Sequence record: MH159197.1
Source: Staphylococcus phage VB_SavM_JYL01
Reading direction: 5' to 3' (one strand)
Length of the DNA stretch: 64,000 bases
Shown here: positions 11,039 to 45,742 of the stretch, piece by piece
How the letters are laid out: every line of letters starts with the position of its first letter
How positions within the stretch are numbered: the stretch's first letter is position 1
Made by a program: the position numbers and the translations under genes
Notes under the pieces: model-generated
The model's input: the letters and a program-made list of their open reading frames with translations, nothing else
Told to the model about the DNA's origin: nothing
The model's database searches: none

Positions 11039-11085
11039 AGTCAAGTCTTTACTTGACTCTTTTTACTATATATGGTATATTAATA
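11037..11085 (+). terminator. terminator hairpin whose 3' arm carries a TTGACT -35 (TTGACT-17-TATATT with a TGG extension)
   Basis: agagtcaagt-cttt-acttgactct followed by ttttt, then ...tatggtatattaatata. The same cassette recurs at 17031. Confidence 0.6.
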
Positions 11086-11101
11086 TAGAGGTGACTTAAA
11101 A

Positions 11102-11638
11102 ATGGATTTTAATTTTAGTGCTTTTGATAATAGCTCATTAGCAATGAGAATTAGTGAGGGTGTATACTATTTCAATGATACCCCTTATTACTTTATTGAA
11201 CATATAGAAGAAGAAATGTCTGAGTATGTTATTGTGTATGACATACATGATAGAGAGGAAAAAGAAAATCCTCAGAAGAAATATAGAGTAGAACCTTACC
11301 AACGGACAATACCTGGAGGTACACCTCTTAGTAATTTGATTAAGAGTATGATGCCTCAACGTAAATATCCTAAGAAGGTTGTAGAAGACCCTATATTTGT
11401 AGCTAATGTTATTCCTTTAGGAACAGATACAGTTACAGGTAAAACTGGAAAAGGTTTTTTTGAAAGAGATAAGGATAGAACTATTTACTCACAGAAAGAA
11501 CCAACTAAGGTAGTCCATGGTCAATACACAGGTGTTTTCATAGGTCTAACAAGTGTTAAATGGAATAGAACATATACTCCTTTAGAAAGTGTTGTTGAGT
11601 ATTGCAAGAGAGTAAAAGGAGATAGGTTAAATGTCTAA
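11102..11638 (+). CDS. hypothetical protein
   Basis: 178-aa ORF with an SD tagaggtga. Confidence 0.6.
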   Translation: MDFNFSAFDNSSLAMRISEGVYYFNDTPYYFIEHIEEEMSEYVIVYDIHDREEKENPQKKYRVEPYQRTIPGGTPLSNLIKSMMPQRKYPKKVVEDPIFVANVIPLGTDTVTGKTGKGFFERDKDRTIYSQKEPTKVVHGQYTGVFIGLTSVKWNRTYTPLESVVEYCKRVKGDRLNV

Positions 11639-12398: not shown

Positions 12399-12822
12399 AC
12401 GTAAAGAGATACAGCATCAACCTGTTAACTTTGCCCCAACAAATACTTTAACAGGAGCTAATAATAGTTTCTTTGCTAAAAAGCCCTCAGAACCTAAGGA
12501 TACAACATCTGTTATTGAATATAGAATACTTTTTATTAAAAGATTTGATAATGTAACAAGTACAGATGTTAAGTTACAAAAAAAATATGCATTAAATCTT
12601 ATTAGTGAGGCACTTGATGTTAAAGAAACTTATCTATCTCTTAAACAAAAAGGAAAGAAAACAGAATCTATTTTACACACAGATAGAGTTTATTATGTGC
12701 ATAGAGGTAAAAAACTTATTGGAAAATGTAGTATTAGGGAGCAAAGAACATTTAAAGGTAAACATTTGATATTTATATTTAAGACAAGACATAGAGTTAA
12801 AGCAGAAAGGAAAGATAAATAA
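12376..12822 (+). CDS. hypothetical basic protein
   Basis: 148-aa Lys/Arg-rich ORF. Confidence 0.55.
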   Translation: MSKDKPNRRKEIQHQPVNFAPTNTLTGANNSFFAKKPSEPKDTTSVIEYRILFIKRFDNVTSTDVKLQKKYALNLISEALDVKETYLSLKQKGKKTESILHTDRVYYVHRGKKLIGKCSIREQRTFKGKHLIFIFKTRHRVKAERKDK

Positions 12823-13685
12823 TGTTAAAAGGATTTTCAGAACATGTAGATAAACCTACAACTATTAAAACCTTATATAAGACCTTAACAAGTGGTAAAG
12901 TAGAATTACTAGGTGTATCTTATGGTAGTGATTACTTCCCTTCAGGTGTTACAGTACAAGCTTATATTGAAGATATAGGTAATGAAGATGAAGGTCTGCA
13001 GTTTGTTAATAAAGTAAACGTAGTGGAATCAATGAAACAGGCTGTAGTAGGTATGAACAATCAATTAGGTTCCTCAGGTCTTGGATATGTTAGAACTGAA
13101 CAACTTAAAAAAGAGCTAGAAGAAACTGGATTAATGACAGATTTACTTGCTAGAGGTACTAACTTAACTTCTACTAAGAAAGTGGATATTGTAAGTACTT
13201 TTATTGAGCCTGAAGTAACATATCAAGACATTACTATAGCTAAAGATATTAAGTTACGTCTATACAAACTAGAAGAAGAGTCACCATTAAACGGTTATAC
13301 ACATATTGTATATCTTCTTACTACAGAGAAATTATATGATGGTCAAACACTATTTGGTATGCTATCTAAGAAAGATAAGTTATCTAAAGGAGATACTGAT
13401 AAATTATTAGCATTCTTTAGAAATAATAGTTTAATAAGTAAAAGTGTATTTTGTGTTAAGTTATTAAGTAAAGACTACTACTTCAATTTATATAATACAC
13501 ATGAAACAGGTATATTCTTTTTAGAAGATACGGATATTATTACTATTGCTTGTGGTCAGTCATACGTTAAAGTTAATACTAAAGATATTAAATCTAGTCA
13601 TGTTAAAATTGAAGATGAGACTCATAAATTAACTGAGCTAGTAATTAACTTAAAAGGTGACGACACATTAACTATTTTATTCTAA
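12822..13685 (+). CDS. hypothetical protein
   Basis: 287-aa ORF. Confidence 0.6.
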   Translation: MLKGFSEHVDKPTTIKTLYKTLTSGKVELLGVSYGSDYFPSGVTVQAYIEDIGNEDEGLQFVNKVNVVESMKQAVVGMNNQLGSSGLGYVRTEQLKKELEETGLMTDLLARGTNLTSTKKVDIVSTFIEPEVTYQDITIAKDIKLRLYKLEEESPLNGYTHIVYLLTTEKLYDGQTLFGMLSKKDKLSKGDTDKLLAFFRNNSLISKSVFCVKLLSKDYYFNLYNTHETGIFFLEDTDIITIACGQSYVKVNTKDIKSSHVKIEDETHKLTELVINLKGDDTLTILF

Positions 13686-34996: not shown

Positions 34997-35282
34997 GACT
35001 AATAGGAGTATGTTGACTAATAAGGAAGATATATAGGAGAGGAGTTAATCAAGTAAAACCAATAAAATCAATTAAAACCAAGTAAAGTAACTAAACAATA
35101 CCTAGAGCCTGGGAAAACTTTTACCTCTCCCACTCAGCCTATTACTTACTACCGACTTCCCTAACTATGTATTCTATAGTTATAATATTCATTTATTATA
35201 CAATACTTAAACTATAGTATTGTAACCTTAATCTATACTGAAGCGGTATTAATCTATTGTTATTATATAATAATCTTATATA

Positions 35283-35414
35283 ATGGTGGTATAATCTAGG
35301 TTATTACATTAGAATCATTCTAATCTAGAATTTTAATCTTTAGACCCTAGGAAAAGTGGTACTAAAATATAGAACCCTATAGGTATGGGATTCTTATTTT
35401 TAAAATTACTAAAA
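35283..35414 (+). ncRNA. candidate small RNA (extended -10 TGGTATAAT to a terminator-like hairpin)
   Basis: An extended -10 aatggtggtataat precedes about 110 nt with no ORF. This ends in agaaccctataggtatgggattct plus tattttt. Confidence 0.25.
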
Positions 35415-35534
35415 AGTATTAGGTTTTCCCTAGGGTAAAGTTTTAATGTACCTAAAATCGTAAGTAGCTCCTTATCATTTAGGTCTGTTTAATTGAGAAT
35501 ATTAGAAGATATCCGCTTCAATTACAATTAAAGG

Positions 35535-35665
35535 TTGACAACTATGAAGCGGTATGTTATACTTAGTATTGTAGGGGTGGTTCCCTACAGACCTAGACTA
35601 TGGTCGTGATTTTGGTTTGCATATTAGTGTCATTCATAACCCCTACTGGAATAGGGGTTATTTTT
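35535..35665 (+). ncRNA. candidate small RNA (promoter TTGACA-17-TATACT to a rho-independent terminator)
   Basis: ttgacaactatgaagcggtatgttatact precedes about 95 nt with no ORF. It holds an internal hairpin tgtaggg-gtggtt-ccctaca and ends in aaccccta-ctggaa-taggggtt plus ttttt. Confidence 0.3.
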
Positions 35666-35674
35666 ATTTAAGTA

Positions 35675-35703
35675 TTGACATACTCTAAGTAGTATGGTAT
35701 GAT
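35675..35703 (+). promoter_or_regulatory. sigma-A-type promoter TTGACA-17-TATGAT
   Basis: ttgacatactctaagtagtatggtatgat. Confidence 0.5.
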
Positions 35704-35726
35704 TAGTATATAAGGAGATGAATAAT

Positions 35727-36023
35727 ATGATTGATATATACTTAGGGGAAAACTATAATACTGATTACTTATCTACTATTATGAATATTATAAAGACTTC
35801 CGCTTCAAGAGAGTTAAGTTATGGGTTTAATAATAAAGAAGCGGATGTAAATATAGAGGATATGAAGTATGAAGGTGATGTTATGCATGTATATGGTACG
35901 ATGTCTATGGATTATCCAGGCTGTATTATTATATGTATTACTAGTGAAGAGACTAAGGTTATATATGGTGGTAACTTTCTAACAGGTACAGGTCTTAGTC
36001 AAGAAGTTAGAGAAAAATTCTAG
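35727..36023 (+). CDS. hypothetical protein, paralog family A member (start MIDIYLGENYN)
   Basis: An SD aaggag sits 9 nt before ATG 35727. The N-terminus matches the 37000, 37290 and 37577 proteins. Confidence 0.65.
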   Translation: MIDIYLGENYNTDYLSTIMNIIKTSASRELSYGFNNKEADVNIEDMKYEGDVMHVYGTMSMDYPGCIIICITSEETKVIYGGNFLTGTGLSQEVREKF

Positions 36024-36034
36024 GGGGAGTTATT

Positions 36035-36205
36035 ATGATTATACCATTAATTATATTCATGATGACCTTCGGTACATTTGCATTCAGTTATGTTGCACAT
36101 GATGCATACAAAGTAGATGAAAAAGGTATCATGTATGCTATGGTAGTTGGTATTGTAGTTATAAATGGGATTGGTTTAGAAATGATAATTGTAGAATGTT
36201 TATAA
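36035..36205 (+). CDS. 56-aa membrane protein (below the track cutoff)
   Basis: An SD tagggggag sits 6 nt before the ATG. The protein has two TM helices. Confidence 0.45.
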   Translation: MIIPLIIFMMTFGTFAFSYVAHDAYKVDEKGIMYAMVVGIVVINGIGLEMIIVECL

Positions 36206-36218
36206 AGGAGGTAGTAAA

Positions 36219-36404
36219 ATGATAGGTCAAATTATACTATTAGCTATTGTTAGTATAGTTACAATAGGTTGTGTAGGATTATTTTTCTATGAGACGTTCA
36301 AGAGTATTAAGTATGATGCTAATGATAAAATCTTTATGATTACTGGGAGTATATTAATGTTAGTTATTATCGTTAGTGGTGCATTAGCTATACTTGGCAT
36401 TTAG
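36219..36404 (+). CDS. small membrane protein
   Basis: 61-aa ORF with two TM helices and an SD aaaggaggt. Confidence 0.5.
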   Translation: MIGQIILLAIVSIVTIGCVGLFFYETFKSIKYDANDKIFMITGSILMLVIIVSGALAILGI

Positions 36405-36672
36405 AGCTCATTTAAGAAGCGGTTAAGTAGTTCATGATAAATTGGTCTAGAAATATATGACCGCTTCTCTATGGAAGGCTGAGAGGGTTTAGAATTGAAA
36501 GGAGAGATATAATGGCTATATTTTTTAGTATTTTATTATTGATTAACATATACTTAATATACTATGAATGTACTTCAGTTACGTTTGATTGGTGTGCACT
36601 GCTTATTTACGTATGCTCATTATGCTCTTGTATTTATTTAATAGTATATTTTGTATAAAAGGAGGAGATATA

Positions 36673-36987
36673 ATGCAAGCAACTATATACTGTGCTAATA
36701 GGTATAGTAAAAATACATTAAAGAGTCTTTTAGAAAAATTAGAAGCGGAGAATAGAAACTTAACATATAGTACTGACATATCAGATATGGAGGAAGTGGA
36801 TGTTATTGTACAACACACTGACTTATCTTTTGCAGAGTTAATGGATTCTTGTGATAGAGTAAGTAAAGGGTCTGACCGCTTCCAAGTATTTGTAGGTAAT
36901 CACGCAGGGTATTATATAAACGGTGATTTATATATTAACGAAGTAGGTAAGTTTATTGTACCTAGGAAAACGAATATGATGATGTAA
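36673..36987 (+). CDS. hypothetical protein, divergent paralog family A member (start MQATIYCANRY)
   Basis: An SD aaaggaggag sits 6 nt before ATG 36673. The shared pattern is IYxxxxYxxxxLKxLLExL...R.LTY. Confidence 0.55.
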   Translation: MQATIYCANRYSKNTLKSLLEKLEAENRNLTYSTDISDMEEVDVIVQHTDLSFAELMDSCDRVSKGSDRFQVFVGNHAGYYINGDLYINEVGKFIVPRKTNMMM

Positions 36988-36999
36988 GGAGGAAATATA

Positions 37000-37290
37000 A
37001 TGATTCATATATTTGTAAAAGAGGATTATAATAAAGAAACATTAAGGAGTTTACTTGAATATATTAATGATACTGTAGGTAGGGAATTAACTTATGGTAT
37101 TAATACAGACTATGATAAGGATGTAGTGATTGAAACCGATGACCCTATAGATGAGGAGAATACGATTGATTTATCAAATCTTCCTCACTTTAAAGATGAC
37201 TTATGTATTCTTATAGAAGAATTATACTGTAAGGCATTTGTTAATGGGGAACCTATTATTATACGTAAGTATGTAGAGGGGATGTTATAA
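37000..37290 (+). CDS. hypothetical protein, paralog family A
   Basis: The protein is MIHIFVKEDYNKETLRSLLEYINDTVGRELTYGIN... The SD is gtaaggagg. Confidence 0.65.
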   Translation: MIHIFVKEDYNKETLRSLLEYINDTVGRELTYGINTDYDKDVVIETDDPIDEENTIDLSNLPHFKDDLCILIEELYCKAFVNGEPIIIRKYVEGML

Positions 37291-37577
37291 TGATTATAAT
37301 ATTTTTAACTGAAAAATATGATGCCAAGGCTTTAAAGAAAGTATTAGAACATATTGATAATTGTAGTAGCAGAGGTCTTAGCTATTTAATGGGAAAAGGA
37401 GAAGCGGATGTATGTATAGAGAAGAATGTATTCAGAGAAAGAGATGATGTAAGGATTAACTCAAACATTATTGATGAAGGTAAACTTTGTATACTCATAA
37501 ATAAAAATGGTTTAGAATGTAGTTACTATAGAGGTGTATCATGTAATATTGGTGCCTTTGTAAAGGAGAGATTATAA
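37290..37577 (+). CDS. hypothetical protein, paralog family A
   Basis: The protein is MIIIFLTEKYDAKALKKVLEHIDNCSSRGLSY... The SD is gagggg. Confidence 0.65.
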   Translation: MIIIFLTEKYDAKALKKVLEHIDNCSSRGLSYLMGKGEADVCIEKNVFRERDDVRINSNIIDEGKLCILINKNGLECSYYRGVSCNIGAFVKERL

Positions 37578-37870
37578 TGATAGAAATATATCTCAGTGAA
37601 AACTATGATAGGGATTTACTCAAAGCAGAATTAAAATGGATTAAAGAGACCGCTTCAAGAGAACTAACTTATGATGTTAATAGAAGCCCAGGATTAGATG
37701 TACATATTAGTCCTTTTAGATATACCAAGGATGAGGTTGAAGAAATGAGCTTACATCCTCAGTTTGAAGATGATGTATGTGTATTTATAGCTGAAACATG
37801 GATACATGAGTATCGTAATGGTAAATCAATAGGTGTAGATAGTATGGAAGAATATGTAAAGGAGATGTAA
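37577..37870 (+). CDS. hypothetical protein, paralog family A
   Basis: The protein is MIEIYLSENYDRDLLKAELKWIKETASRELTY... The SD is aaaggagag. Confidence 0.65.
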   Translation: MIEIYLSENYDRDLLKAELKWIKETASRELTYDVNRSPGLDVHISPFRYTKDEVEEMSLHPQFEDDVCVFIAETWIHEYRNGKSIGVDSMEEYVKEM

Positions 37871-37873
37871 TTA

Positions 37874-38122
37874 ATGGTAGAAACTTATTATACAGTATAT
37901 CATAAGAATAGTATGAAAACTATTAAGGATTACTTAAGTAGAAGTGATTTAATTGACTTCTTATATAAGACTTGGCATAAGGATATAAGTAATATATACC
38001 CAACAGATTATACTACGTATGAAACAAAATTCTGTATAGACATAGATGTAGTTAGATTAATTGAAGCGGTTAATGAAGAAGGTGTATTACTTATTAATGA
38101 AGGTAATATTGTAGAGTGGTAG
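37874..38122 (+). CDS. hypothetical protein, paralog family B
   Basis: The protein contains YTVYHKNSMKTIKDYLSRSD... The SD is aaggagatg. Confidence 0.6.
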   Translation: MVETYYTVYHKNSMKTIKDYLSRSDLIDFLYKTWHKDISNIYPTDYTTYETKFCIDIDVVRLIEAVNEEGVLLINEGNIVEW

Positions 38123-38134
38123 GAGGAGATAAAT

Positions 38135-38374
38135 ATGAGTCAGTTTTTCACGTATACAGTGTATCATACAGAAACAGCTAAAGTAGTAGCTAAGAATTTG
38201 TTTGATGCATCATTGGTGCACCTTATTAACAAGATGATAGAGAAAGATATAGTTAAGGATATTAATTTAGAATATTACATGAATACACGTGGTGTAGTTA
38301 TAGATATGAGTAGACTACTGGATGATATAGAATCACAGGGTGTATTTCTATTCAAACGTAAGCTACATGGATAA
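38135..38374 (+). CDS. hypothetical protein, paralog family B
   Basis: The protein contains TYTVYHTETAKVVAKNL...LLDDIESQGVFLF. The SD is taggaggag. Confidence 0.6.
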   Translation: MSQFFTYTVYHTETAKVVAKNLFDASLVHLINKMIEKDIVKDINLEYYMNTRGVVIDMSRLLDDIESQGVFLFKRKLHG

Positions 38375-38485
38375 TAGGTTAGACCCTAAAAAGTTTGAGA
38401 TACAATAGGATGCTTAGGATAATAGGATAAAAATAACTTAGGATGCTTAGGATGAAATACGATACGATAGGGAGGTTAAGTTAAG

Positions 38486-38725
38486 ATGCAAGAGTTAATA
38501 ACTTATATAATTTACCATAAAGAATCAGGTAAAGTAGTAGCACAGGATTTAAGTGAATTAGAAACTATTGAACTTATATACAAAATGATAGAAGAGGGAT
38601 TAGTAAAAGATATAGAATTATCTAACTACCGTCTTTTTAGTGGGAATATAGATATACTTAACTTATTAGTAGACATACGTAAACAAGGTATATTTGATTT
38701 TGAACATACTTGGCACACAAGATAA
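38486..38725 (+). CDS. hypothetical protein, paralog family B
   Basis: The protein contains TYIIYHKESGKVVAQDL...LLVDIRKQGIFDF. The SD is atagggagg. Confidence 0.6.
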   Translation: MQELITYIIYHKESGKVVAQDLSELETIELIYKMIEEGLVKDIELSNYRLFSGNIDILNLLVDIRKQGIFDFEHTWHTR

Positions 38726-38736
38726 GGAGGGATAGG

Positions 38737-39081
38737 ATGATAGTTATATATTCAGATGAGTCTAGGGATTACTTAAGAGATGAGTTCTTACCTTGGCTTA
38801 ATGATAGAGATAGATATTTAAAATATTATAAGAATGAGTTACCTGAAGATATAGACTCTTCTTATGTTGTATCAGTTGTATACTGTAGGGATATGGAAGG
38901 TCTTATGAATAGGAAAGATATTCTTATTGGTAATAGTTATAGAGAGCCTGTAGCTGTATTAGGTGTTCCTGAATTTTTTGGTAACTATTCTAATTATTAC
39001 TATTATAAAGGAGAGCATATAAGTAAGCATGACCTAGGAGAGATAATTAGGTTAAAGGCTTGGCAACGTAATTTTGACTAA
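38737..39081 (+). CDS. hypothetical protein (start MIVIYSDE)
   Basis: An SD aaggaggg sits 7 nt before ATG 38737. Confidence 0.55.
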   Translation: MIVIYSDESRDYLRDEFLPWLNDRDRYLKYYKNELPEDIDSSYVVSVVYCRDMEGLMNRKDILIGNSYREPVAVLGVPEFFGNYSNYYYYKGEHISKHDLGEIIRLKAWQRNFD

Positions 39082-39165
39082 GTAGCTCTCTCTAATTTCA
39101 CTAAGTAGCTCCCTAGGAATTGCCTAAGTAGCTCGGTGTGATTTTACCCTAAGTAGCTCCCTCTG
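39077..39165 (+). repeat. four direct repeats of CTAAGTAGCTC with 22-25 bp periodicity (iteron-like)
   Basis: gaCTAAGTAGCTCtctc, caCTAAGTAGCTCccta, gcCTAAGTAGCTCggtg and ccCTAAGTAGCTCcctc. Confidence 0.7.
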
Positions 39166-39196
39166 TTTTCTATTAGTTTATTTTAACCGCTTCACG

Positions 39197-39212
39197 TGTC
39201 TATATATAGACA
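39197..39212. promoter_or_regulatory. 16-bp perfect palindrome TGTCTATATATAGACA (operator-like)
   Basis: Read directly from the sequence. It lies in ORF-free DNA between the iteron-like repeats and -10-like boxes. Confidence 0.5.
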
Positions 39213-39565
39213 ATCGGAATAATAGCAGACCGCAAAAAGAAATACACTAGGATATTATTCCCAGTGTATTGTATAATTTTTTTATATAATATTTGTAGAA
39301 GCGGTTGGGGTTTGTCCCTTGCCTTACTACACTTAATATATTACAGTATAGTTATTCAGAAGTCAATACTTTTGAGTAACTTTTTTTTAAATTCTTTTTT
39401 CTTCTATATAATAGTAGTTTTTAGCCCTAAAAAAAGTTTTTTAAAAGAATTTACATTTTCTTATTGACTTATTAATCATATGATAGTAATATAAAGGTAC
39501 AGCAAGAGAACAGCAACAAGGTATTAGAATTATATAAAAAAATTATTTAATTGGAGATGATTTAA

Positions 39566-39874
39566 ATGGATGTAAAAGAAATTGCAGACACTATAATGGA
39601 GTTGTGGCAAATGGACGGATACAGATGTACAGAACCGCCATTATATGAAAGCACATTAAACCACACACGCACATACACGGCTTTAATTGTAAGCATTAAA
39701 GGTAATTACGACACTGTTCAAATGTTCCGTAAAACGCCTATAATGAGCATGAGAGGGCAAAGCCAACCGGCTAGCATGTTAGTAAATGTAATTGATGACG
39801 TGATTATAATCGTATATGAAAATACGGTTTACGGGGTACAGAATAAAGAAATAAAATTTATTGAAGAAATTTAA
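39566..39874 (+). CDS. hypothetical protein
   Basis: 102-aa ORF with an SD aattggagatg. Confidence 0.55.
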   Translation: MDVKEIADTIMELWQMDGYRCTEPPLYESTLNHTRTYTALIVSIKGNYDTVQMFRKTPIMSMRGQSQPASMLVNVIDDVIIIVYENTVYGVQNKEIKFIEEI

Positions 39875-39972
39875 AAATAGGGGTTGCAATACCCCTTAAG
39901 ATGTAGTAATATAATAGATGTAAGGGATAGCAACACACCTTAAAAAACTTTTTAAAAAAGTTAAAGAAAAGT

Positions 39973-40001
39973 GTTGACACCTTACAAGATACATGTTAAT
40001 A
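39973..40001 (+). promoter_or_regulatory. LTR early-type promoter TTGACA-N15-cATGTTAATATTAgt (extended -10 TGTTAATAT) with an upstream A6/T6 UP-like element
   Basis: ttaaaaaactttttaaaaaagttaaagaaaagtgttgacaccttacaagatacatgttaatattag. Confidence 0.5.
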
Positions 40002-40079
40002 TTAGTATAGAAGTTAAGACAAGCCACATAGCAAATAACGAAATTAAATAAAAAAATTATAGAATAGGATTTGATTATT

Positions 40080-40367
40080 ATGACAAACAAAAATTACTTA
40101 TACGAAGAAACTCACACAGTACAAGGGCAAGATATTACGGCTTTCAGAATTCCAAATGACACAAACGGCAACCCACGTTATGTAGTGCATTTCATGGATT
40201 TAGACATTAAACTAGCAGACTATGACAACATCAATAAGCTATACGGATTTAAAAAATATACTGCTAAATGGTTTGGCGGTGGTGTAGTATTCCAAAGCTA
40301 TAATATTGAAGATACATTAAATTACGCACTATCTAATGTTAAAGAAATAGAAGCGGTTAAGAATTAA
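40080..40367 (+). CDS. hypothetical protein (start MTNKNYLY)
   Basis: The conserved leader aggatttgattattATG is present. Confidence 0.55.
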   Translation: MTNKNYLYEETHTVQGQDITAFRIPNDTNGNPRYVVHFMDLDIKLADYDNINKLYGFKKYTAKWFGGGVVFQSYNIEDTLNYALSNVKEIEAVKN

Positions 40368-40376
40368 AACCGCTTC
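40350..40376. other. inverted repeat GAAGCGGTT-(9)-AACCGCTTC overlapping the gene stop
   Basis: gaagcggttaagaattaaaaccgcttc. Confidence 0.6.
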
Positions 40377-40416
40377 TGAATTAAATAAAAAAATTATATA
40401 AAAAGGGTATGATATT

Positions 40417-40608
40417 ATGAAATTTAAAATAGAAAAAAATAACAGTGATATAAAAACTTTATGGAATTTAGCTAAAAATGGATATATGAGTTATCAAACT
40501 GTACACAATATATTTAAAAATGAATCAGATGAATTTATTATATTTAACAGTAAACAAACTTATAATAAATTTATGGAATTAAGATATAATAGAAGTGCAA
40601 TTCAATAG
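40417..40608 (+). CDS. hypothetical protein
   Basis: 63-aa ORF with an SD aaaagggtatg. Confidence 0.5.
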   Translation: MKFKIEKNNSDIKTLWNLAKNGYMSYQTVHNIFKNESDEFIIFNSKQTYNKFMELRYNRSAIQ

Positions 40609-40619
40609 TATAAAAAAGT

Positions 40620-40665
40620 TATATAATTCCCTAGGATTAAATTCCTAGGGATTTTTATTTGTTTT
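40620..40665 (+). terminator. terminator-like hairpin
   Basis: ccctaggatt-aaa-ttcctaggg followed by atttttattt. Confidence 0.5.
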
Positions 40666-40699
40666 AATTTATATAAAAAAATTATTTAATAAATAAATT

Positions 40700-41100
40700 A
40701 GTGTAAAATTGACTGTTGACAAGAATATATTTTTTATGGTATAATGAAGTGAAGACCTTTTTTAGTATAAAAAAATTATTATATAAAAAAATTATATAAA
40801 AAAGTTTAGTTCCGGTCTTTCTCCCCACCTTGTCATATTTATAGTGGAAGGGTTAGGCGGGTTACCACTGTTTTACTTTCTATATATAGTATACTATGAA
40901 TAATGGTAATTGTCAACACCTTTCAGAAACTTTTTTTACTTTATTTTATTATTATATAAAAAAATTATACATATTTTAGGGCTCCACTTCCATTATATAA
41001 TAATTCGGTCTTAATGTCAATACTTTTATTCAAAAAAGTTTTTTAAATTAGTTTCAACAAATCTATTGACTTATGTTTATTTCTATAGTAATATATAGTT
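40700..41100. repeat. intergenic repeat element, copy A (about 390 bp; homologous to 42890..43150, with a diverged core at 45520..45600)
   Basis: The shared order is as follows. A + promoter ttgaca..tataatgaagtgaa comes first, followed by ttttttagtataaaaa and attatataaaaaaattatataaa. A GC-rich core ggtcttt..cccc follows, then a leftward TTGACA-17-TATACT promoter. It closes with aaaaaagtttt..aaatctattgactta..taatatatag. Confidence 0.65.
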
Positions 41101-41124
41101 ATACCAACAAGGGAGGCAATACAA

Positions 41125-41283
41125 ATGCTAAAATTTAAATGGAAAAACAAAACAATCAAATCAACTCAAAAAACGGATAACATTCTTTTACTTCTTATAG
41201 GTGGTTTAGTTGCAACAGTCACACCTAAACTTGTAAACTGGTTTTTACTACTACAAGATAATATAAATATTTTTTTAAGATAA
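41125..41283 (+). CDS. 52-aa membrane protein (below the track cutoff)
   Basis: An SD caagggagg sits 9 nt before the ATG. The protein has one TM helix. Confidence 0.45.
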   Translation: MLKFKWKNKTIKSTQKTDNILLLLIGGLVATVTPKLVNWFLLLQDNINIFLR

Positions 41284-41331
41284 CTATTGACAACTTAGAA
41301 ACAACGTGTTAATATTAAGATACAAGGTAAG

Positions 41332-41351
41332 GGAAGCGGTTGACCGCTTCC
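41332..41351. promoter_or_regulatory. palindrome GGAAGCGGT-tg-ACCGCTTCC directly downstream of promoter 41287 (operator-like)
   Basis: ttgacaacttagaaacaacgtgttaatattaagatacaaggtaagggaagcggttgaccgcttccgacc. Confidence 0.5.
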
Positions 41352-41449
41352 GACCTAAATAAAAAAAGTTTAAAAAAACTATTGACAGTCACTTGAAACC
41401 ATGATATTATTAAGATAACAAAAAACAAACAGAAAAGGAATTGATTATA

Positions 41450-41773
41450 ATGAAATTTATCAAAACTATCGAAAACTTATTAGAAAAAGCAGAAAACAAA
41501 GGGCAAGCAATTTTAAACGGTCGTTACTTTGATGGGTATAGCAAAGGTGAGCTTGAGGAAAAATATGCAATTGAAATTGATGGCAACAAATTGATTATGC
41601 GTCACTGGGGTACACAAACAATTGAGATTGATTTAAGCATAAATGAGATTGTTTCATATTACGGTGAAAGCAATTCAGACCGTGACAGTTTAAACACACT
41701 TGTATATTGCTTAGGAATTGCGCCAAACTTTAGATACTTACCAAGCAAAAACTTATTCATTTACGAAAATTAA
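41450..41773 (+). CDS. hypothetical protein (start MKFIKTIENL)
   Basis: The conserved leader aaaaggaattgattataATG is present. Confidence 0.55.
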   Translation: MKFIKTIENLLEKAENKGQAILNGRYFDGYSKGELEEKYAIEIDGNKLIMRHWGTQTIEIDLSINEIVSYYGESNSDRDSLNTLVYCLGIAPNFRYLPSKNLFIYEN

Positions 41774-41782
41774 TTAAATAAA

Positions 41783-41815
41783 GGGCTTGACTTCCAAGCC
41801 CTACCATGTTATTAT
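41783..41815 (+). promoter_or_regulatory. hairpin with TTGACT in its loop followed by an extended -10 (hairpin-embedded -35 cassette)
   Basis: agggcttg-acttc-caagccct, then accatgttattattaa. Confidence 0.5.
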
Positions 41816-41872
41816 TAAATTGTAAGGTAATCAAGCACAACGACAAAATAAACTGAAAAGGGATTGATGAAA

Positions 41873-42379
41873 ATGACAAATAATAAGGATTTTAATAAAA
41901 ATTTCTTAAGACTACTAAAAGTTAAAAATGTAAATGACAAAAGGGTGCAAGGTTTCATAAACAAGCATGACATTAAACTTAAAGACAAAGAAGAAAGCTC
42001 ACAAGGATATGTTAACGTATTATATAAGGGTTATGACTTTGTAATATCAAAAGACTATGCAGGTCAAACGGCGTTATATGTTAACATGCGTAATTTAGGG
42101 GTTGACTACAAACATTTTAAACATTTAGATTTTAATAATATTGTTCAAGCGTTAGACAGAAAAAATAATAATCGTGTTGAATGTAAGGAAACAAAAACAC
42201 AACAATATAAAGAATTTAAACACCGTCAAAAGACAGAAAAAGAAATGTTAACATACTATGAAAAGGATATCGAAAAGCTAAAAGAAGAACTGGAACGAAC
42301 ACAAAAAATCTACAATGATAAAATAAAGAAAATAGAAAATTACGATAAAAAAATATCTAGACTAAAAAAATCAAAATAA
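41873..42379 (+). CDS. hypothetical basic/coiled-coil protein (start MTNNKDF)
   Basis: The conserved leader aaagggattgatgaaaATG is present. Confidence 0.55.
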   Translation: MTNNKDFNKNFLRLLKVKNVNDKRVQGFINKHDIKLKDKEESSQGYVNVLYKGYDFVISKDYAGQTALYVNMRNLGVDYKHFKHLDFNNIVQALDRKNNNRVECKETKTQQYKEFKHRQKTEKEMLTYYEKDIEKLKEELERTQKIYNDKIKKIENYDKKISRLKKSK

Positions 42380-42448
42380 GGCTTGACACTTTCAAGCCCT
42401 CATGATATACTTAGTATAACAAATCAAAAAGAAAAGGAATTGATGAAA

Positions 42449-42829
42449 ATGTTCAAATTACAAAATAAAGTGGAAATTATCGTACCTAAGGAAGATAACA
42501 ACGGCGTTGAGATTGCAGACAAACGTATTAAAGAATATGTAAATAGCATCACAATGGAAGCGGGTGGTTGTACTATTACAGAAATCAAAGGGCAATGGTA
42601 CTCAGAAGATGAAAAACGTATAATGGAAGATAACAACTTAAATCTTGAGTGGTACTACATGCAAGACAGTGCCAAATTCATGACAGTTGAATTAAAAGGC
42701 ATTGTAAGACGTTTAATTGAAGTTTACGGACAAGAAGCAATAAGCATTAAAGTTAACGGCACATTGTACATTGTAGACCAATCAGACATTGAAGAATTAC
42801 ACACAACATTATTAAATATCATGAAATAA
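42449..42829 (+). CDS. hypothetical protein (start MFKLQNKVEI)
   Basis: The conserved leader aaaaggaattgatgaaaATG follows the hairpin-promoter aaggcttgacactttcaagccct. Confidence 0.55.
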   Translation: MFKLQNKVEIIVPKEDNNGVEIADKRIKEYVNSITMEAGGCTITEIKGQWYSEDEKRIMEDNNLNLEWYYMQDSAKFMTVELKGIVRRLIEVYGQEAISIKVNGTLYIVDQSDIEELHTTLLNIMK

Positions 42830-42889
42830 AAAATTTATATAAACCGCTTCGGATTAAATTCTTGAAGTGGTTATTTTCTTTTAAATTAG

Positions 42890-43150
42890 TGCTTGACAAA
42901 TGTACTAAAAAATGAGATAATGAAGTGAACGCATTTTTTAGTATAAAAATAATATTATATAAAAAAATTATATAAATGAATTTATTTCAGGTCTTTCCCG
43001 TAACCCCTCTTGGGCTACCCTGGTATCTCTACAATTATTATTATACTATAGGTCATGAAGATTGTCAATAACTTTCTTCAAAATAATTTATTTAAAAAAG
43101 TTTCATAAATCTATTGACTTACTATTAATTATGGTGTAATATATAGATAT
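42890..43150. repeat. intergenic repeat element, copy B
   Basis: Aligns with copy A. It contains the leftward promoter TTGACA-17-TATAAT (RC of attattatactataggtcatgaagattgtcaata) and the GC core ggtctttcccgtaacccctcttgggctaccctggta. Confidence 0.65.
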
Positions 43151-43271
43151 AAGGTTAAGGAAGCGGAACACCTAAAAAAGAAATTAAAAAAACTTTTAAA
43201 AAGGTGTTGACAAACTTCAAACCACATGTTAATATTAAGATAACAAATAAAACAAAAAGGAATTGATAATT

Positions 43272-43493
43272 ATGAACAGATTAGAAATAATAAAAGACAC
43301 GGCAATGGAATACATCATTATGATGGATAACGGAGTTATGGACGGACAATTGACACAAGAAGAATACAACGAAGCGGTTAGCTTTGAAAAGGTTTACGAT
43401 TACACTTTATCAGAAGCAAATCAAGAATGTAAATTCTTAGGCGGTAAAATTTTAACTTTCCTAGTACATGAAGCAATTGAAGAATACGCATAA
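43272..43493 (+). CDS. hypothetical acidic protein (start MNRLEIIK)
   Basis: The conserved leader aaaaggaattgataattATG is present. Confidence 0.5.
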   Translation: MNRLEIIKDTAMEYIIMMDNGVMDGQLTQEEYNEAVSFEKVYDYTLSEANQECKFLGGKILTFLVHEAIEEYA

Positions 43494-43574
43494 AAAAACT
43501 TAATCAAAGGGGTTGACATTCAACCCCTTACCATGTTAATATTAATATATACCAAATGAGAGGAATTGATAATT

Positions 43575-43712
43575 ATGAGATACGAAATCGTAACATTAGT
43601 TAATGGAGAATTATTCATGTTTGCAACATTTAAGAAAGCAGAGGCAGAAAATAAATATCAAGAATGGTGTGACTTGTACGGTCAAGAAAATGTAAGCATG
43701 GAAAAAAATTAA
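43575..43712 (+). CDS. 45-aa hypothetical protein (below the track cutoff)
   Basis: The leader agaggaattgataattATG follows the hairpin-promoter aaggggttgacattcaacccctt. Confidence 0.4.
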   Translation: MRYEIVTLVNGELFMFATFKKAEAENKYQEWCDLYGQENVSMEKN

Positions 43713-43782
43713 AATAAGGGGTTGACACTTAACCCCTTAGATGTTATTATTAATATATACTAAAGAAAAGGAAATGATAAAA

Positions 43783-44019
43783 ATGAAATTATTAAACCAA
43801 GAAAATGAAATCGTAAAAGAAATGGTAACTTTTAGAGACGTAAAACAAGCCCTAATTTGGGAATACATCGACCACATAGATAATAACATCCTAAACAATG
43901 AAATTCATGACACAGAAGCGGTTGTGGTTACTTCTGAGACTCTACAATCAATCAAATTTGCAGACACTATGGAAGACCTGCAGGAATACATTGCAGATAT
44001 CAATTGGAAATTAGTTTAA
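43783..44019 (+). CDS. hypothetical protein (start MKLLNQENEIV)
   Basis: The leader aaaaggaaatgataaaaATG follows the hairpin-promoter aaggggttgacacttaacccctt. Confidence 0.5.
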   Translation: MKLLNQENEIVKEMVTFRDVKQALIWEYIDHIDNNILNNEIHDTEAVVVTSETLQSIKFADTMEDLQEYIADINWKLV

Positions 44020-44113
44020 AAAAAGTTTTAAATAACTGTTGACACCTTAGCAAATAGATGGTAATATAAGAGTATAAAGAAAAACAAAAAAAAACGAAAA
44101 GGATTTGATTATA

Positions 44114-44458
44114 ATGACAAACTTACTAAACACTATTGAGATGGATTTTGAATACTATGGAGTACAATTTGAAAATGGATGGAAACACAATGCCTACACT
44201 GTAGAGCTAACACATAATGGAGTTACCGAAGAATTTGACTGGAAACAAGGAATAGGAATTCACGAAGAGCCTGAACTAGAAAGCATCTTAGAAAGCTTAA
44301 TGCTAGATATTCATTACTATGAAGAAGATATTTATTCAATGTATGAGGACGAAGAACAGGCAGAAAAAATAATTGAGAAGTTAGAAGAACAAACTAAAAA
44401 GGTAAATAAACTATTTACAGATGAGGAACAAGCAGACCTAGTTGAATACTTTGAATAG
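44114..44458 (+). CDS. hypothetical acidic protein (start MTNLLNTIEM)
   Basis: The leader aaaaggatttgattataATG follows promoter 44039 ttgacaccttagcaaatagatggtaatat. Confidence 0.55.
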   Translation: MTNLLNTIEMDFEYYGVQFENGWKHNAYTVELTHNGVTEEFDWKQGIGIHEEPELESILESLMLDIHYYEEDIYSMYEDEEQAEKIIEKLEEQTKKVNKLFTDEEQADLVEYFE

Positions 44459-44483
44459 TATCAGGAAACACACAGAGACCCAC

Positions 44484-44505
44484 AGAAGCGGATTAATCCG
44501 CTTCT
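44484..44505. other. 22-bp perfect palindrome AGAAGCGGATTAATCCGCTTCT
   Basis: Read directly from the sequence. It sits immediately after the stop of 44114..44458. Confidence 0.6.
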
Positions 44506-44532
44506 AATATAATTAATCAGGAGATGTTAAAG

Positions 44533-44697
44533 ATGACAATTAAAGAGGTTATAAGCCAATTAGAATTAGTAGAAAATAAAGAACTTGAATTGTACGTATG
44601 CGACAAGGAAAATAATAACATTTCAATTAATGATATTATTTTGTTCGATAGTGAAGCAGAGCACACAGAAAACAACCCACTAGGGATTAATTATTAG
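44533..44697 (+). CDS. 54-aa hypothetical protein (below the track cutoff)
   Basis: The leader aatcaggagatgttaaagATG duplicates the leader of the 44710 gene. Confidence 0.45.
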   Translation: MTIKEVISQLELVENKELELYVCDKENNNISINDIILFDSEAEHTENNPLGINY

Positions 44698-44709
44698 GAG
44701 ATGTTGAAC

Positions 44710-44883
44710 ATGAACACAAGAAGGGTAAACAAAGCGTTAAACGAAGCAGTTAGATTATTAGACAAGCAAATAGCAGACACACAGAAAACAATGCAGGAGT
44801 TAAATAAACAACTAGAACAACAGATAAAAGCTAAGCAGGAGCTAATGACATTAGTTGATGCTATGACTGGTGATGATGAGTAA
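44710..44883 (+). CDS. hypothetical coiled-coil protein (start MNTRRVNK)
   Basis: The leader attaggagatgttgaacATG is present. Confidence 0.5.
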   Translation: MNTRRVNKALNEAVRLLDKQIADTQKTMQELNKQLEQQIKAKQELMTLVDAMTGDDE

Positions 44884-45152
44884 TGAACGTTAGAGAGGTT
44901 CATGATGTCGTTAAGAGTGCAAAGAGCAAACTCCTGCAGGAGCAGAATAATATTAATAATGTAATGATATATGAATACATCACAGAAGAGCTTCACAGAC
45001 GCACACAGAGAAGCGGAACAATACAGATGAACAATAACACCGCTTCATATAGTAATGGCTCATATGGTAGCTTAGAAGAGCTTAGAGAAGCTTATGACCT
45101 CTCTTCTCTATCTACTGATGAGATTAAAGAACTACTTGAAACATTTGTTTAA
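44883..45152 (+). CDS. hypothetical protein
   Basis: 89-aa ORF whose start overlaps the upstream stop. Confidence 0.5.
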   Translation: MNVREVHDVVKSAKSKLLQEQNNINNVMIYEYITEELHRRTQRSGTIQMNNNTASYSNGSYGSLEELREAYDLSSLSTDEIKELLETFV

Positions 45153-45236
45153 ATTATTTTATCAAAACGCTTTACAATCTTTTAGTTTGTATGATATAAT
45201 GAACTTAACAAATTAAAAGAAAAGGAAATGATGAAC

Positions 45237-45458
45237 ATGAGAGACTTACAAGAGAGAAAAAGAGAATTAAAAACATTACTATTTAACTTAGCCATAGAGA
45301 AGAATAGAGCAACGGATGAGCAGTTAAGAGAAGTATTAGAACAATCACATCAAGAAGTGATGTATCAATTAAATAAAGTTAGAAAAGAAATTGAAATTTT
45401 AGTTGAAGAAAAAGAAAGAGAATTTTGGAATGATTTCGATTTTAATGGATTAGATTAA
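45237..45458 (+). CDS. hypothetical protein (start MRDLQERK)
   Basis: Promoter TTTACA-18-TGaTATAAT is followed by the leader aaaaggaaatgatgaacATG. Confidence 0.5.
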   Translation: MRDLQERKRELKTLLFNLAIEKNRATDEQLREVLEQSHQEVMYQLNKVRKEIEILVEEKEREFWNDFDFNGLD

Positions 45459-45486
45459 GAGGGAATAAAATCCCTCTTTTATTTTT
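45459..45486 (+). terminator. rho-independent terminator
   Basis: agaggga-ataaaa-tccctct followed by tttatttttat. Confidence 0.65.
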
Positions 45487-45519
45487 ATCCTATTATATAA
45501 TTTTTTTATATTATACGGG

Positions 45520-45600
45520 GGCAGGGGTAAAATGCCACTCAATGGGGGTGGGTCTATATACCCCTACGGTCTACCCAGGTACTTATTTTTTGGGGAAAAT
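45520..45600. repeat. GC-rich structured element, third diverged copy of the repeat core
   Basis: gggtctatatacccctacggtctacccaggtac aligns with copy B ggtctttcccgtaacccctcttgggctaccctggta. It is followed by ttattttttgggg. Confidence 0.4.
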
Positions 45601-45620
45601 TATGAAAATAAATATTTAAA

Positions 45621-45742
45621 AGTCAACACATAAAATATAGAAAGTAAGTCAACATCCCTTATAATAAGTCAACATTATAACCTTACTTGGTAAGTCAACA
45701 ATTTATAGTACAAATATAAAGCCTCTAAATATAAAGTCAACA
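45621..45742. repeat. five direct repeats of (T/A)AAGTCAACA at irregular spacing (26/20/26/42 bp)
   Basis: Copies lie at 45621, 45647, 45667, 45693 and 45735. The reverse complement TGTTGACTT matches the left-side copy atgttgactaataagg at 35007-35024. Confidence 0.65.

What the first reader, a model, noticed from the sequence alone, without database searches (positions are those of the whole stretch)
45621..45742. Five direct (T/A)AAGTCAACA repeats at the right edge of the block, with an inverted partner at the left edge (35007-35024)
Right edge: five copies lie within 120 bp, just downstream of the 3' end of the first leftward gene. Left edge: atgttgactaataagg lies immediately after the last rightward micro-ORF. 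The reverse complement of right copy 3 is atgttgacttattataagg, so the two edges carry inverted copies of ATGTTGACT..AAGG. Terminal-repeat borders in related phage groups have been reported to carry short inverted repeats. These could mark the redundancy boundaries or act as terminase or replication recognition sites. The repeats do not form properly spaced promoters on either strand.
Basis: partly seen in the sequence, partly recalled or inferred. Interest (0 to 1): 0.6.

Follow-up and report, generated by a model that had tools for sequence, protein, structure and literature searches.

The report
Conserved promoter-box array beside terminal repeat
Five same-direction copies of a 9-base box, identical to this Staphylococcus phage's own promoter "-35" element, lie just outside the right end of its long terminal repeat, and the first box keeps the same ~44-base distance from the repeat's end even in a Listeria phage, so it is a real conserved junction signal whose exact job is still open.

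Summary
The five (T/A)AAGTCAACA copies are real (45619-45742; 0 of 100 shuffles reach five). The window is a Staphylococcus Kayvirus. By homology to mapped relatives its long terminal repeat (LTR) is about 35112-45575. The published border marker is a different 12-bp inverted repeat, whose right copy CCCAGGTACTTA lies at 45574-45585.

The boxes therefore lie 44-167 bp outside the LTR, in unique DNA. All 17 relatives compared keep 2-5 co-oriented boxes. The first always sits 43-45 bp beyond the LTR end, also in Silviavirus and, as a single exact 10-mer, in Listeria phage A511. SPO1 has five different direct repeats at the same place.

On the minus strand each box reads TGTTGACTT, a consensus extended sigma-A -35. 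The same 9-mer is the -35 of a published early promoter. Only box 1 has a conserved, well-spaced -10. It would fire leftward across the border, inside the published snc004 RNA, but no study has confirmed this promoter.

The left-edge "inverted partner" varies in distance, is missing in some relatives, and is absent in A511.

Best reading: an RNA-polymerase docking and promoter array tied to the LTR terminus. Main rival: a genome-end processing site.

In passing, the host Chi heptamer GAAGCGG is heavily concentrated in the LTR.

The parts
45619..45628 (-). Box 1 (AAAGTCAACA on +; TGTTGACTTT on -). It is the border-proximal copy and the -35 of the predicted leftward promoter.
   Evidence: Exact match. 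It sits at a fixed offset from the conserved core in all 17 relatives, 44 bp outside the LTR end. The same 10-mer lies 44 bp outside the A511 terminal-repeat end.
45645..45654 (-). Box 2, an orphan -35-like box
   Evidence: Exact match. No usable -10 at 16-18 nt in any relative.
45665..45674 (-). Box 3, an orphan -35-like box
   Evidence: Internal copies vary in number among relatives.
45691..45700 (-). Box 4, an orphan -35-like box (AAGTCAATA in A3R, LM12, Sa83 and RODI)
45733..45742 (-). Box 5, next to the terminator of the leftward gene. TTGACT-16-TATATT in this genome only.
   Evidence: The -10 decays to TCTATT or CTTATT in relatives.
45599..45604 (-). -10 hexamer CATAAT of the box-1 promoter. 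Predicted start is about 45592, some 16 nt outside the LTR end.
   Evidence: Consensus scan. Spacing of 16-17 nt is kept in all Kayvirus-type relatives, and Silviavirus has an unrelated spacer with TAATAT at 17 nt. PhagePromoter predicted the same site in 515A1 with score 0.894, but RNA-seq did not confirm it.
45574..45585 (.). Right copy of the published 12-bp LTR-border inverted repeat, CCCAGGTACTTA. The LTR ends at 45575|45576.
   Evidence: Border placed by homology to annotated LTR ends of Stab20, A3R and Sa83. Literature.
35112..45575 (.). Long terminal repeat (single copy in this circularly assembled window), 10,464 bp, with rightward early tre genes
   Evidence: Homology to the Stab20 LTR 1..10814 / 142525..153338 and the A3R R-LTR start. 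Many relatives lose homology to the window exactly at 35101-35119.
35102..35113 (.). Degenerate left copy of the border inverted repeat (CTAGAGCCTGGG instead of TAAGTACCTGGG)
   Evidence: Read from the sequence. Aligned with the left borders of Stab20 and A3R.
35010..35025 (+). A single inward-facing box with one mismatch, 87-102 bp outside the LTR start.
   Evidence: Variable distance, absent in RODI and in the A511 outer flank.
45507..45539 (.). 33-bp invariant GC-rich core, TATATTATACGGGGGCAGGGGTAAAATGCCACT, inside the LTR near its right end
   Evidence: Identical in Kayvirus and all four Silviavirus phages, including StAP1. G-runs at 45517, 45524, 45544 and 45550. On the minus strand it reads GTGGCA-17-TATAAT.
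45452..45593 (-). Putative ~140-nt C-rich leftward RNA running from the box-1 promoter across the LTR border to the TreU terminator. It corresponds to the 3' part of published snc004.
   Evidence: Fold z-score -3.1. Phage K snc004 is minus strand 8370-8665; K boxes are at 8531-8627 and the predicted K start is about 8503. The stem is not conserved in Silviavirus.
45457..45478 (+). Terminator after treU, listed as bidirectional in phage K
45753..45779 (-). Terminator of the first leftward gene (45784-46074), which bounds the array on the right

Best explanation
The five repeats are a conserved cis-acting array at the junction between the left LTR and the unique DNA. Each box is a consensus 'extended -35' element (TGTTGACTT on the minus strand) of the type the host sigma-A RNA polymerase uses at this phage's early promoters. 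All boxes face the LTR.

The most likely docking partner is host RNA polymerase (sigma-A region 4). Box 1, together with CATAAT 16 nt away, forms a leftward promoter, probably weak. Its transcripts would start about 16 nt outside the LTR, cross the 12-bp border repeat and the GC-rich core, and stop at the TreU terminator. Boxes 2-5 have no -10 and would act only as extra docking sites upstream of that promoter.

Shown:
- The sequence identity of the boxes to functional -35 contexts.
- The conservation of the boxes, their shared orientation, and the distance of box 1 from the terminus.
- The conserved promoter geometry at box 1.
- Published minus-strand RNA over the region.

Inferred:
- That RNA polymerase actually binds the boxes.
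- That box 1 initiates transcription.
- That the fixed 43-45 bp distance to the genome end matters functionally. A polymerase sitting on box 1 would reach roughly +20, which is the position of the LTR end.
For: - The information content is confined to the 9 bp. Flanks and spacers are free, and T-SE-G2 and Silviavirus keep the boxes with unrelated spacers.
- One of the only two other exact copies in the 141-kb genome matches the published 515A1 early promoter p79, TTGACT-17-TATAGT. Kayvirus early promoters show T(A/G)TTGAC(A/T)(A/T) contexts.
- TTGACTT is the conserved -35 of Pecentumvirus immediate-early promoters. That explains why a Listeria phage carries the identical 10-mer.
- Only box 1 has a good -10 at 16-17 nt. 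This holds in all Kayvirus-type relatives and, with unrelated spacer sequence, in 3 of 4 Silviavirus phages.
- PhagePromoter independently predicted this site in 515A1, score 0.894.
- Minus-strand RNA snc004 covers the whole gap in phage K.
- An exact 10 of 10 match between Staphylococcus and Listeria phages, 43-45 bp from the terminus, is easier to explain by a shared, highly conserved host protein than by a phage-specific factor.
Against: - Boxes 2-5 lack a -10 in every relative.
- A511's box has only TAAAAA at 17 nt.
- None of the three transcriptome studies lists a promoter here. The 515A1 study searched genome-wide with coverage steps and a weight matrix and still did not retain it.
- snc004 equals the entire intergenic gap and may simply be read-through from bofL.
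- There are no binding data.
- SPO1's analogous repeats (TTGAAT on the minus strand) are poor -35 matches.
Confidence: 0.4

Rival explanations
1. Genome-end processing site. The boxes, above all box 1, are recognised by a phage protein such as a terminase subunit or an accessory factor. That protein positions the cut, or the duplication of the LTR, a fixed distance away. This would resemble small-terminase binding sites next to lambda cosN or the hexamer arrays flanking the P1 pac cut.
For: - Box 1 sits 43-45 bp outside the mapped or annotated terminal-repeat end in Kayvirus, Silviavirus and Listeria phage A511, although the sequence in between has diverged.
- The chance of the 10-mer at one given position is about 2e-6.
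- SPO1 has five co-oriented direct repeats starting about 48 bp outside its terminal redundancy.
- The array occurs only at this junction.
- Orphan boxes without a -10 are conserved.
Against: - A phage-specific recognition site would be expected to diverge between Staphylococcus and Listeria phages, yet the 10-mer is identical and equals the host -35 consensus.
- Copy number varies from 1 to 5.
- No equivalent box lies at a fixed distance from the left border.
- No DNA-binding domain was found in the neighbouring small proteins.
Confidence: 0.25
2. Operator-like sites for a phage-encoded regulator that recognises early-promoter -35 regions, for example the factor proposed to shut off early transcription. 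In this reading the array is a high-affinity cluster.
For: - The boxes equal early -35 contexts.
- PMC9241854 speculates about a factor that binds the conserved -35 region.
- The phage encodes an HU/IHF-like protein.
Against: - No such regulator has been identified.
- The array lies between two convergent terminators, where nothing obvious needs regulating.
- The identical box in a Listeria phage would require a conserved regulator.
Confidence: 0.1
3. A DNA-entry pause or anchoring signal of the T5 type. Host-protein boxes just beyond the early-gene-bearing LTR would hold the incoming genome until the LTR genes have been expressed.
For: - The array exists only after the left LTR copy, because it is outside the repeat.
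- In T5 a conserved untranslated repeat region with arrays of DnaA boxes and direct repeats sits at the LTR right end and overruns into unique DNA. It has been proposed, in silico, as the injection-stop signal.
Against: - I found no evidence of two-step DNA transfer in Herelleviridae.
- It is unknown which genome end enters first.
- The T5 signal lies mostly inside the LTR.
Confidence: 0.08
4. Iterons of a replication origin.
For: Several direct repeats lie in a very AT-rich stretch (GC 0.23 against 0.30 for the genome).
Against: - The boxes are only 9 bp, with irregular spacing of 26, 20, 26 and 42 bp.
- Copy number drops to one in A511.
- There is no initiator gene nearby.
- The site is a convergent-transcription zone.
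Confidence: 0.05
5. One reading: the right array and the left element form an inverted pair that marks both redundancy boundaries.
For: An inward-facing TGTTGACTA is present left of the LTR in 5 of 7 Kayvirus-type phages.
Against: - Its distance from the border ranges from 58 to 522 bp.
- It is absent in RODI, has 2 mismatches in Metroid, and is absent in the A511 outer flank.
- The five phages that have it share a homologous flank, so it may be retained by descent alone.
Confidence: 0.03

Closest known systems
12-bp LTR-border inverted repeat of Twort-like phages (TAAGTACCTGGG / CCCAGGTACTTA; Lobocka 2012 as cited in PMC7596081, PMC4111496, PMC6022877)
   Same: Both are short conserved motifs at the LTR/unique-DNA junction. 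The right copy is only 34 bp from box 1.
   Different: The sequence is different. The 12-mer spans the actual cut and has a true partner at the other border. The boxes are direct repeats, lie wholly outside the LTR, and have no consistent partner.
Sigma-A early promoters of Kayvirus (for example p79 of vB_SauM-515A1) and Pecentumvirus (TTGACTT -35)
   Same: The -35 context is the identical 9-mer, TGTTGACTT. Box 1 has a -10 at 16-17 nt.
   Different: Four of the five boxes have no -10. There is no extended TG element. No RNA-seq study has confirmed the site as an active promoter.
snc004, a small non-coding RNA of phage K (PMC9241854)
   Same: It lies on the same strand and covers the whole TreU-BofL gap, including the array and the border.
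   Different: snc004 was defined by coverage as the entire intergenic region. No promoter, 5' end or function was assigned. The boxes themselves are not mentioned.
T5 Repeat Region 3 / injection-stop region (Davison, bioRxiv 10.1101/866236)
   Same: A conserved untranslated repeat cluster at the right end of a ~10-kb LTR that reaches into unique DNA, built partly from arrays of boxes for a host DNA-binding protein.
   Different: The T5 boxes are DnaA boxes arranged in pairs within large inverted repeats, mostly inside the LTR. Here the boxes are -35-type, unidirectional and entirely outside the LTR. The T5 function itself is only a hypothesis.
Terminase recognition arrays (lambda cosB R sites, P1 pac hexamers); from general knowledge
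   Same: Short repeated motifs lie next to a specific cut and set its position.
   Different: No terminase binding has been shown here. The motif equals a host promoter element. It lies on the unpackaged side of the right-end cut.
SPO1 junction repeats (observed here, NC_011421.1 about 13233-13364)
   Same: Five co-oriented direct repeats at 22-33 bp spacing start about 48 bp outside the terminal redundancy. A GC-rich block lies just inside the border.
   Different: The repeat unit is ATTCAAAACTA, interleaved with GGTATGGTACCATACC palindromes. It resembles a -35 only weakly (TTGAAT).

Membership tests
Sigma-70/sigma-A type promoter | -35 hexamer close to TTGACA | tested here: met
   All five boxes read TTGACT on the minus strand. 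The same 9-mer forms the -35 of the homologue of published promoter p79.
Sigma-70/sigma-A type promoter | -10 hexamer close to TATAAT, 16-18 nt downstream | tested here: inconclusive
   Met for box 1 (CATAAT at 16 nt; conserved) and for box 5 in this genome only (TATATT). Not met for boxes 2-4.
Sigma-70/sigma-A type promoter | Experimentally mapped transcription start | not testable with these tools
   Published lists hold no promoter here. There is only a PhagePromoter prediction, score 0.894. Minus-strand RNA exists as snc004.
Twort-like LTR-border inverted repeat | Sequence TAAGTACCTGGG / CCCAGGTACTTA spanning the LTR end, one copy at each border in inverted orientation | tested here: not met
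   The boxes have a different sequence and lie 44 bp or more outside the LTR. The true right copy is at 45574-45585. The left partner of the boxes is inconsistent.
Terminase recognition / pac-cos type site | Fixed position relative to the physical genome end across relatives | tested here: met
   The start of box 1 is 43-45 bp from the LTR end in Kayvirus, Silviavirus and A511.
Terminase recognition / pac-cos type site | Specific binding by a terminase subunit, and a requirement for correct end formation | not testable with these tools
   No biochemical or genetic data were found.
Iteron-type replication origin | Three or more direct repeats of about 17-22 bp at regular, helical spacing, next to an initiator gene | tested here: not met
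   The conserved unit is 9 bp. Spacing is 26, 20, 26 and 42 bp. Neighbouring ORFs have no recognisable domains. A511 has a single copy.
T5-type injection-stop repeat region | Conserved non-coding repeat cluster at the LTR right end, with boxes for a host DNA-binding protein | tested here: inconclusive
   The location and host-factor-like boxes match loosely. The array is outside, not inside, the LTR and is far simpler.
T5-type injection-stop repeat region | Two-step DNA transfer that pauses at the site | not testable with these tools
   I found no report for Herelleviridae.

The most novel reading that the evidence does not exclude
The box array, the 12-bp border repeat and the GC-rich core together form a family-wide cis-acting module that defines the right end of Herelleviridae terminal repeats, using host RNA polymerase as a molecular ruler.

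A polymerase docked on box 1 (-35 at 45621-45626, predicted start about 45592) would extend to roughly +20. The LTR ends between +17 and +18 (45576|45575). A promoter-bound polymerase, or the short leftward RNA or R-loop it makes, could therefore mark where the terminase cuts or where LTR duplication stops.

This would explain three things at once: why the same host -35 box sits 43-45 bp from the terminus in Staphylococcus and Listeria phages, why productive transcription is weak or undetected, and why SPO1 carries five repeats at the same place.
Probability: 0.15. Interest if true: 0.8.

Novelty: new variant of a known kind. Interest (0 to 1): 0.5.

Why it matters
How SPO1-like and Twort-like phages create exact, kilobase-long terminal repeats is still unknown, and these phages are leading candidates for therapy and biocontrol.

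A short box that keeps the same sequence and the same distance from the genome end across Staphylococcus and Listeria phages gives a concrete, mutable target for testing how the end is defined. It also bears on whether a junction RNA or host RNA polymerase takes part.

Practically, the box together with the 12-bp repeat predicts the LTR end from sequence alone. That helps to orient and annotate the many circularly assembled Kayvirus genomes.

The separate observation that the host Chi sequence is concentrated in the LTR suggests how the incoming linear DNA resists RexAB and recombines through its repeats.

Tried and rejected
- **Rfam**, E-value mode, 44500-46500: only sub-threshold chance hits.
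- **Pfam** on TreU, TreT, the 96-aa ORF, BofL, the next ORF, BofR and its neighbour: no domains, so no candidate DNA binder next door.
- **IMG/VR scan for two boxes within 8-38 nt:** 119+ hits, consistent with chance. They are unrelated tandem repeats plus one GC-rich virus whose two matching stretches carry the same sequence on opposite strands.
- **IMG/VR scan for the GC-rich core:** only one Silviavirus contig.
- **IMG/VR composite scan** (GGTAC..GGGAA..AAAGTCAACA): 13 chance hits. The scan returned no Kayvirus or A511 contig, so it is uninformative.
- **Structured-RNA reading of the junction:** the minus-strand RNA folds well in this genome (z = -3.1), but the main stem is not kept in Silviavirus. 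The plus-strand fold is not significant (z = -1.2). No covariation case could be made.
- **Five tandem promoters:** rejected, because only box 1 has a conserved -10.
- **Iteron origin:** rejected on unit length, spacing and context.
- **Left 'inverted partner':** rejected as a conserved feature.
- **Brochothrix phage A9:** no terminal repeat is annotated in the record, and its exact boxes look like ordinary promoter -35s, so it was uninformative.
- **Literature:** Lobocka 2012 and the SPO1 genome paper could not be read, so I cannot exclude that they mention the array. A search for bofL/BofR returned only plant papers.

Full report
**What the window is.** The region 45300-46100 is 100% identical to Staphylococcus phage vB_SauM-SDQ and 83-94% identical to many Kayvirus genomes. 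The flanking genes are annotated TreT/TreU on the left and BofL-type on the right. Several relatives have annotated long terminal repeats (LTRs): Stab20 (1..10814 and 142525..153338), A3R (L-LTR 1..8306), Sa83 ('inferred from NGS coverage data') and fGlntSau01 ('identified by PhageTerm analysis'). Transferring these borders by alignment gives an LTR of 35112-45575 in the window (10,464 bp). The right end falls at ...ggtctacc|caggtactta and the left start at ...gagcctg|ggaaaac. Many relatives lose homology to the window exactly at 35101-35119, which independently marks the left border.

**The observation.** Five exact WAAGTCAACA copies lie at 45619, 45645, 45665, 45691 and 45733, all on the + strand. 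Shuffles average 0.52 copies and none of 100 reaches five. The window and the rest of the SDQ record assemble into a 140,887-bp unit genome. There the 9-mer occurs seven times against 1.7 expected, all on one strand, with five in this array and none inside the LTR. The left element ATGTTGACTAATAAGG is at 35010-35025, after a 33-aa ORF that corresponds to BofR of A3R.

**Where the array sits.** The literature gives the LTR-border marker of Twort-like phages as the 12-bp inverted repeat TAAGTACCTGGG / CCCAGGTACTTA. Its right copy is at 45574-45585. The left copy is degenerate in this phage (CTAGAGCCTGGG, 35102-35113). The five boxes therefore start 44 bp outside the LTR. They occupy unique DNA between the LTR end and the terminator (45753-45779) of the first leftward gene.

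**Comparison with relatives, right side.** I anchored 17 phages on the conserved core GGGGCAGGGGTAAAATGCCAC: the window, 12 other Kayvirus or unclassified Twortvirinae, and 4 Silviavirus.
- Box 1 always starts 98-103 bp from the core.
- Total copies are 5, 4 or 3 in Kayvirus types, and 2 to 5 in Silviavirus, where they can form two clusters.
- Every copy has the same orientation.
- T-SE-G2 and the Silviaviruses have unrelated spacers yet keep the 9-mer.
- A logo over 43 distinct contexts shows information only in the 9 bp.
- The Silviavirus LSA2311 record ends at ...ggggctacct. This is the position homologous to the Kayvirus LTR end, so box 1 is again about 43 bp outside.

**A distant relative.** Listeria phage A511 belongs to another subfamily, and its record annotates the repeat as 1..3125. 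Beyond the border the sequence reads ggggtacgtttttcgggaac...ttcttAAAGTCAACAagg. The identical 10-mer starts 44 bp outside the repeat, and the layout in between is similar: GGTAC, a T-run, GGGAA, about 24 AT-rich bp, then the box. The chance of that 10-mer at one given position is about 2e-6. In SPO1 the terminal redundancy is taken as 1..13185 (figure from memory; the record only marks the gene at 13504-13767 as the first outside it). A GC-rich block, ggagggggtatagacccctcccccc, lies just inside the border. It resembles the Kayvirus minus strand gtaggggtatatagacccaccccc. Five co-oriented repeats of ATTCAAAACTA at 22-33 bp spacing begin about 48 bp outside. A unidirectional repeat array just beyond the right border of the left repeat therefore looks like a family-level architecture.

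**Comparison with relatives, left side.** An inward-facing TGTTGACTA lies at -101 (window), -74 (Stab20), -58 (A3R), -431 (812 K1/420) and -522 (fGlntSau01). In the last two a 35-bp tandem array intervenes. It is absent within 516 bp in phiIPLA-RODI and carries two mismatches in Metroid. The A511 outer left flank has none; a 1-mismatch TGTTGGCTT lies inside gp190 at -126. One-mismatch hits occur at 0.25 per kb per orientation. The phages that have the element share a homologous flank, so descent alone can explain it.

**What the box is.** On the minus strand each box reads TGTTGACTT.
- One of the two other exact copies in the genome matches the published 515A1 early promoter p79, TTGACT-17-TATAGT.
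- The 58 early promoters listed for 515A1 show T(A/G)TTGAC(A/T)(A/T) contexts.
- In the P100-like phage CKA15, TTGACTT is the conserved -35 of immediate-early promoters.

The box is thus an optimal extended -35 element for the host sigma-A polymerase in both hosts. That is the simplest explanation for an identical 10-mer in phages this far apart.

**Promoter geometry.** Across relatives only box 1 keeps a good -10: CATAAT at 16-17 nt in all Kayvirus types, and an unrelated spacer with TAATAT at 17 nt in 3 of 4 Silviaviruses. Boxes 2-5 are orphans, and box 5's -10 decays to TCTATT or CTTATT. The predicted start is about 45592, 16 nt outside the LTR, reading into it.

**Transcription evidence.** Published RNA-seq of phage K reports snc004 on the minus strand at 8370-8665. 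That is the whole TreU-BofL gap. The study ends the bofL transcription unit only at the bidirectional terminator at 8370. In K coordinates the boxes are at 8531-8627 and the predicted start is about 8503. However, none of three transcriptome studies lists a promoter here. The 515A1 study searched genome-wide with coverage steps and a weight matrix. Its supplement holds only a PhagePromoter prediction of exactly this site, score 0.894. A511's box has only TAAAAA at 17 nt. If box 1 is a promoter, it is a weak one.

**Interpretation.** Two facts must be reconciled. The boxes are indistinguishable from host -35 elements, and box 1 sits at a fixed distance from the genome end even where no usable -10 exists.
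- I rate host RNA polymerase docking, with box 1 as a weak leftward promoter across the border, as most likely (0.4).
- A phage-protein recognition site for end processing is the main rival (0.25).
- A regulator operator (0.1), a T5-like entry pause (0.08; T5 precedent) and an iteron origin (0.05) are less likely.
- A combined reading is attractive but untested. A polymerase bound at box 1 would extend to about +20, and the LTR ends between +17 and +18, so the bound polymerase or its short RNA could act as the ruler for the cut.

**Other features of the junction.** A 33-bp core, TATATTATACGGGGGCAGGGGTAAAATGCCACT (45507-45539), is invariant from Kayvirus to all four Silviaviruses. Four G-runs follow. 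The minus-strand junction RNA folds well (z = -3.1), but its main stem is not conserved in Silviavirus. Rfam has no match.

**Side finding.** GAAGCGG is the S. aureus RexAB/AddAB Chi sequence. It occurs 29 times in the unit genome against about 4.3 expected. Twenty-seven copies lie inside the LTR: 16 on the + strand and 11 on the - strand, with unrelated flanks. Among 105 same-composition heptamers the next-best LTR count is 5. Stab20's LTR has 25 copies and its 3 kb of adjacent unique DNA has none. The host genome carries about 1 per 8.4 kb, against 1 per 0.39 kb in the LTR. This suggests that both virion ends are armoured with Chi in both orientations. It parallels the proposal made for the Chi-dense terminal region of phage P1.

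**Limits.** There are no binding, 5'-end or genetic data. Lobocka 2012 and the SPO1 genome paper were not readable, so an earlier description of the array cannot be excluded. The Silviavirus LTR end rests on where a depositor ended the record.

Noticed in passing
window 35240-45040 (inside the LTR 35112-45575): The S. aureus Chi heptamer GAAGCGG occurs 29 times in the 141-kb unit genome against about 4.3 expected. 27 copies lie inside the 10.5-kb LTR (16 on +, 11 on -), with unrelated flanks. Stab20's LTR has 25 and its adjacent unique DNA none. This suggests Chi-armoured genome ends that resist RexAB and promote LTR-LTR recombination.
   Followed up: partly
window 45507-45539: The 33-bp GC-rich core TATATTATACGGGGGCAGGGGTAAAATGCCACT is invariant between Kayvirus and all four Silviavirus phages, including StAP1 where the rest of the junction differs. 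Four G-runs follow, giving G-quadruplex potential. The minus strand reads GTGGCA-17-TATAAT, and the plus strand carries TATATTA, resembling the late-promoter consensus TGTTATATTA.
   Followed up: partly
L147 (SPO1 NC_011421.1) locus 420-760, record about 13119-13459: At SPO1's terminal-redundancy border there is a GC-rich block inside the repeat. Five ATTCAAAACTA direct repeats, interleaved with two perfect 16-bp palindromes (GGTATGGTACCATACC), begin about 48 bp outside, followed by a second GC-rich block (ggtattagaccccctcccccc).
   Followed up: partly
L148 (A511 NC_009811.2) locus 426-532: In A511 the single box (locus 470) lies between inverted repeats CGGGGTAC (426-433, at the repeat border) and GTACCCCG (525-532). 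A GGTAC motif occurs at or near the repeat border in A511, Kayvirus (CAGGTAC) and SPO1 (GGGGTACCCC).
   Followed up: no
window 35102-35113: The left copy of the 12-bp border repeat is degenerate in this phage (CTAGAGCCTGGG). Stab20 has TAAGCACCTGGG and A3R the canonical TAAGTACCTGGG, so only CCTGGG is constant at the left border.
   Followed up: partly
window 35026-35111; L012 and L015: This phage lacks the 35-bp tandem array (TATTAYTACTACTAAGTACCTTTGTTATGTACTAC) found between bofR and the R-LTR in the phage 812 lineage (812 K1/420 here) and fGlntSau01, and reported in the literature for phage K. Each array unit contains a copy of the outer part of the border repeat (TAAGTACCT).
   Followed up: no
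window 45532-45633 (+): A 33-aa ORF annotated in some relatives (for example LM12_0210A) spans the LTR border and the G-rich core. Because it would differ between the two LTR copies, it is probably not a gene.
   Followed up: no
window 39462, 41064, 43112 (+ strand TATTGACTT): One-mismatch versions of the box in the opposite orientation lie inside the LTR. They look like the -35 elements of rightward early promoters. The exact TGTTGACTT form is never used inside the LTR.
   Followed up: no
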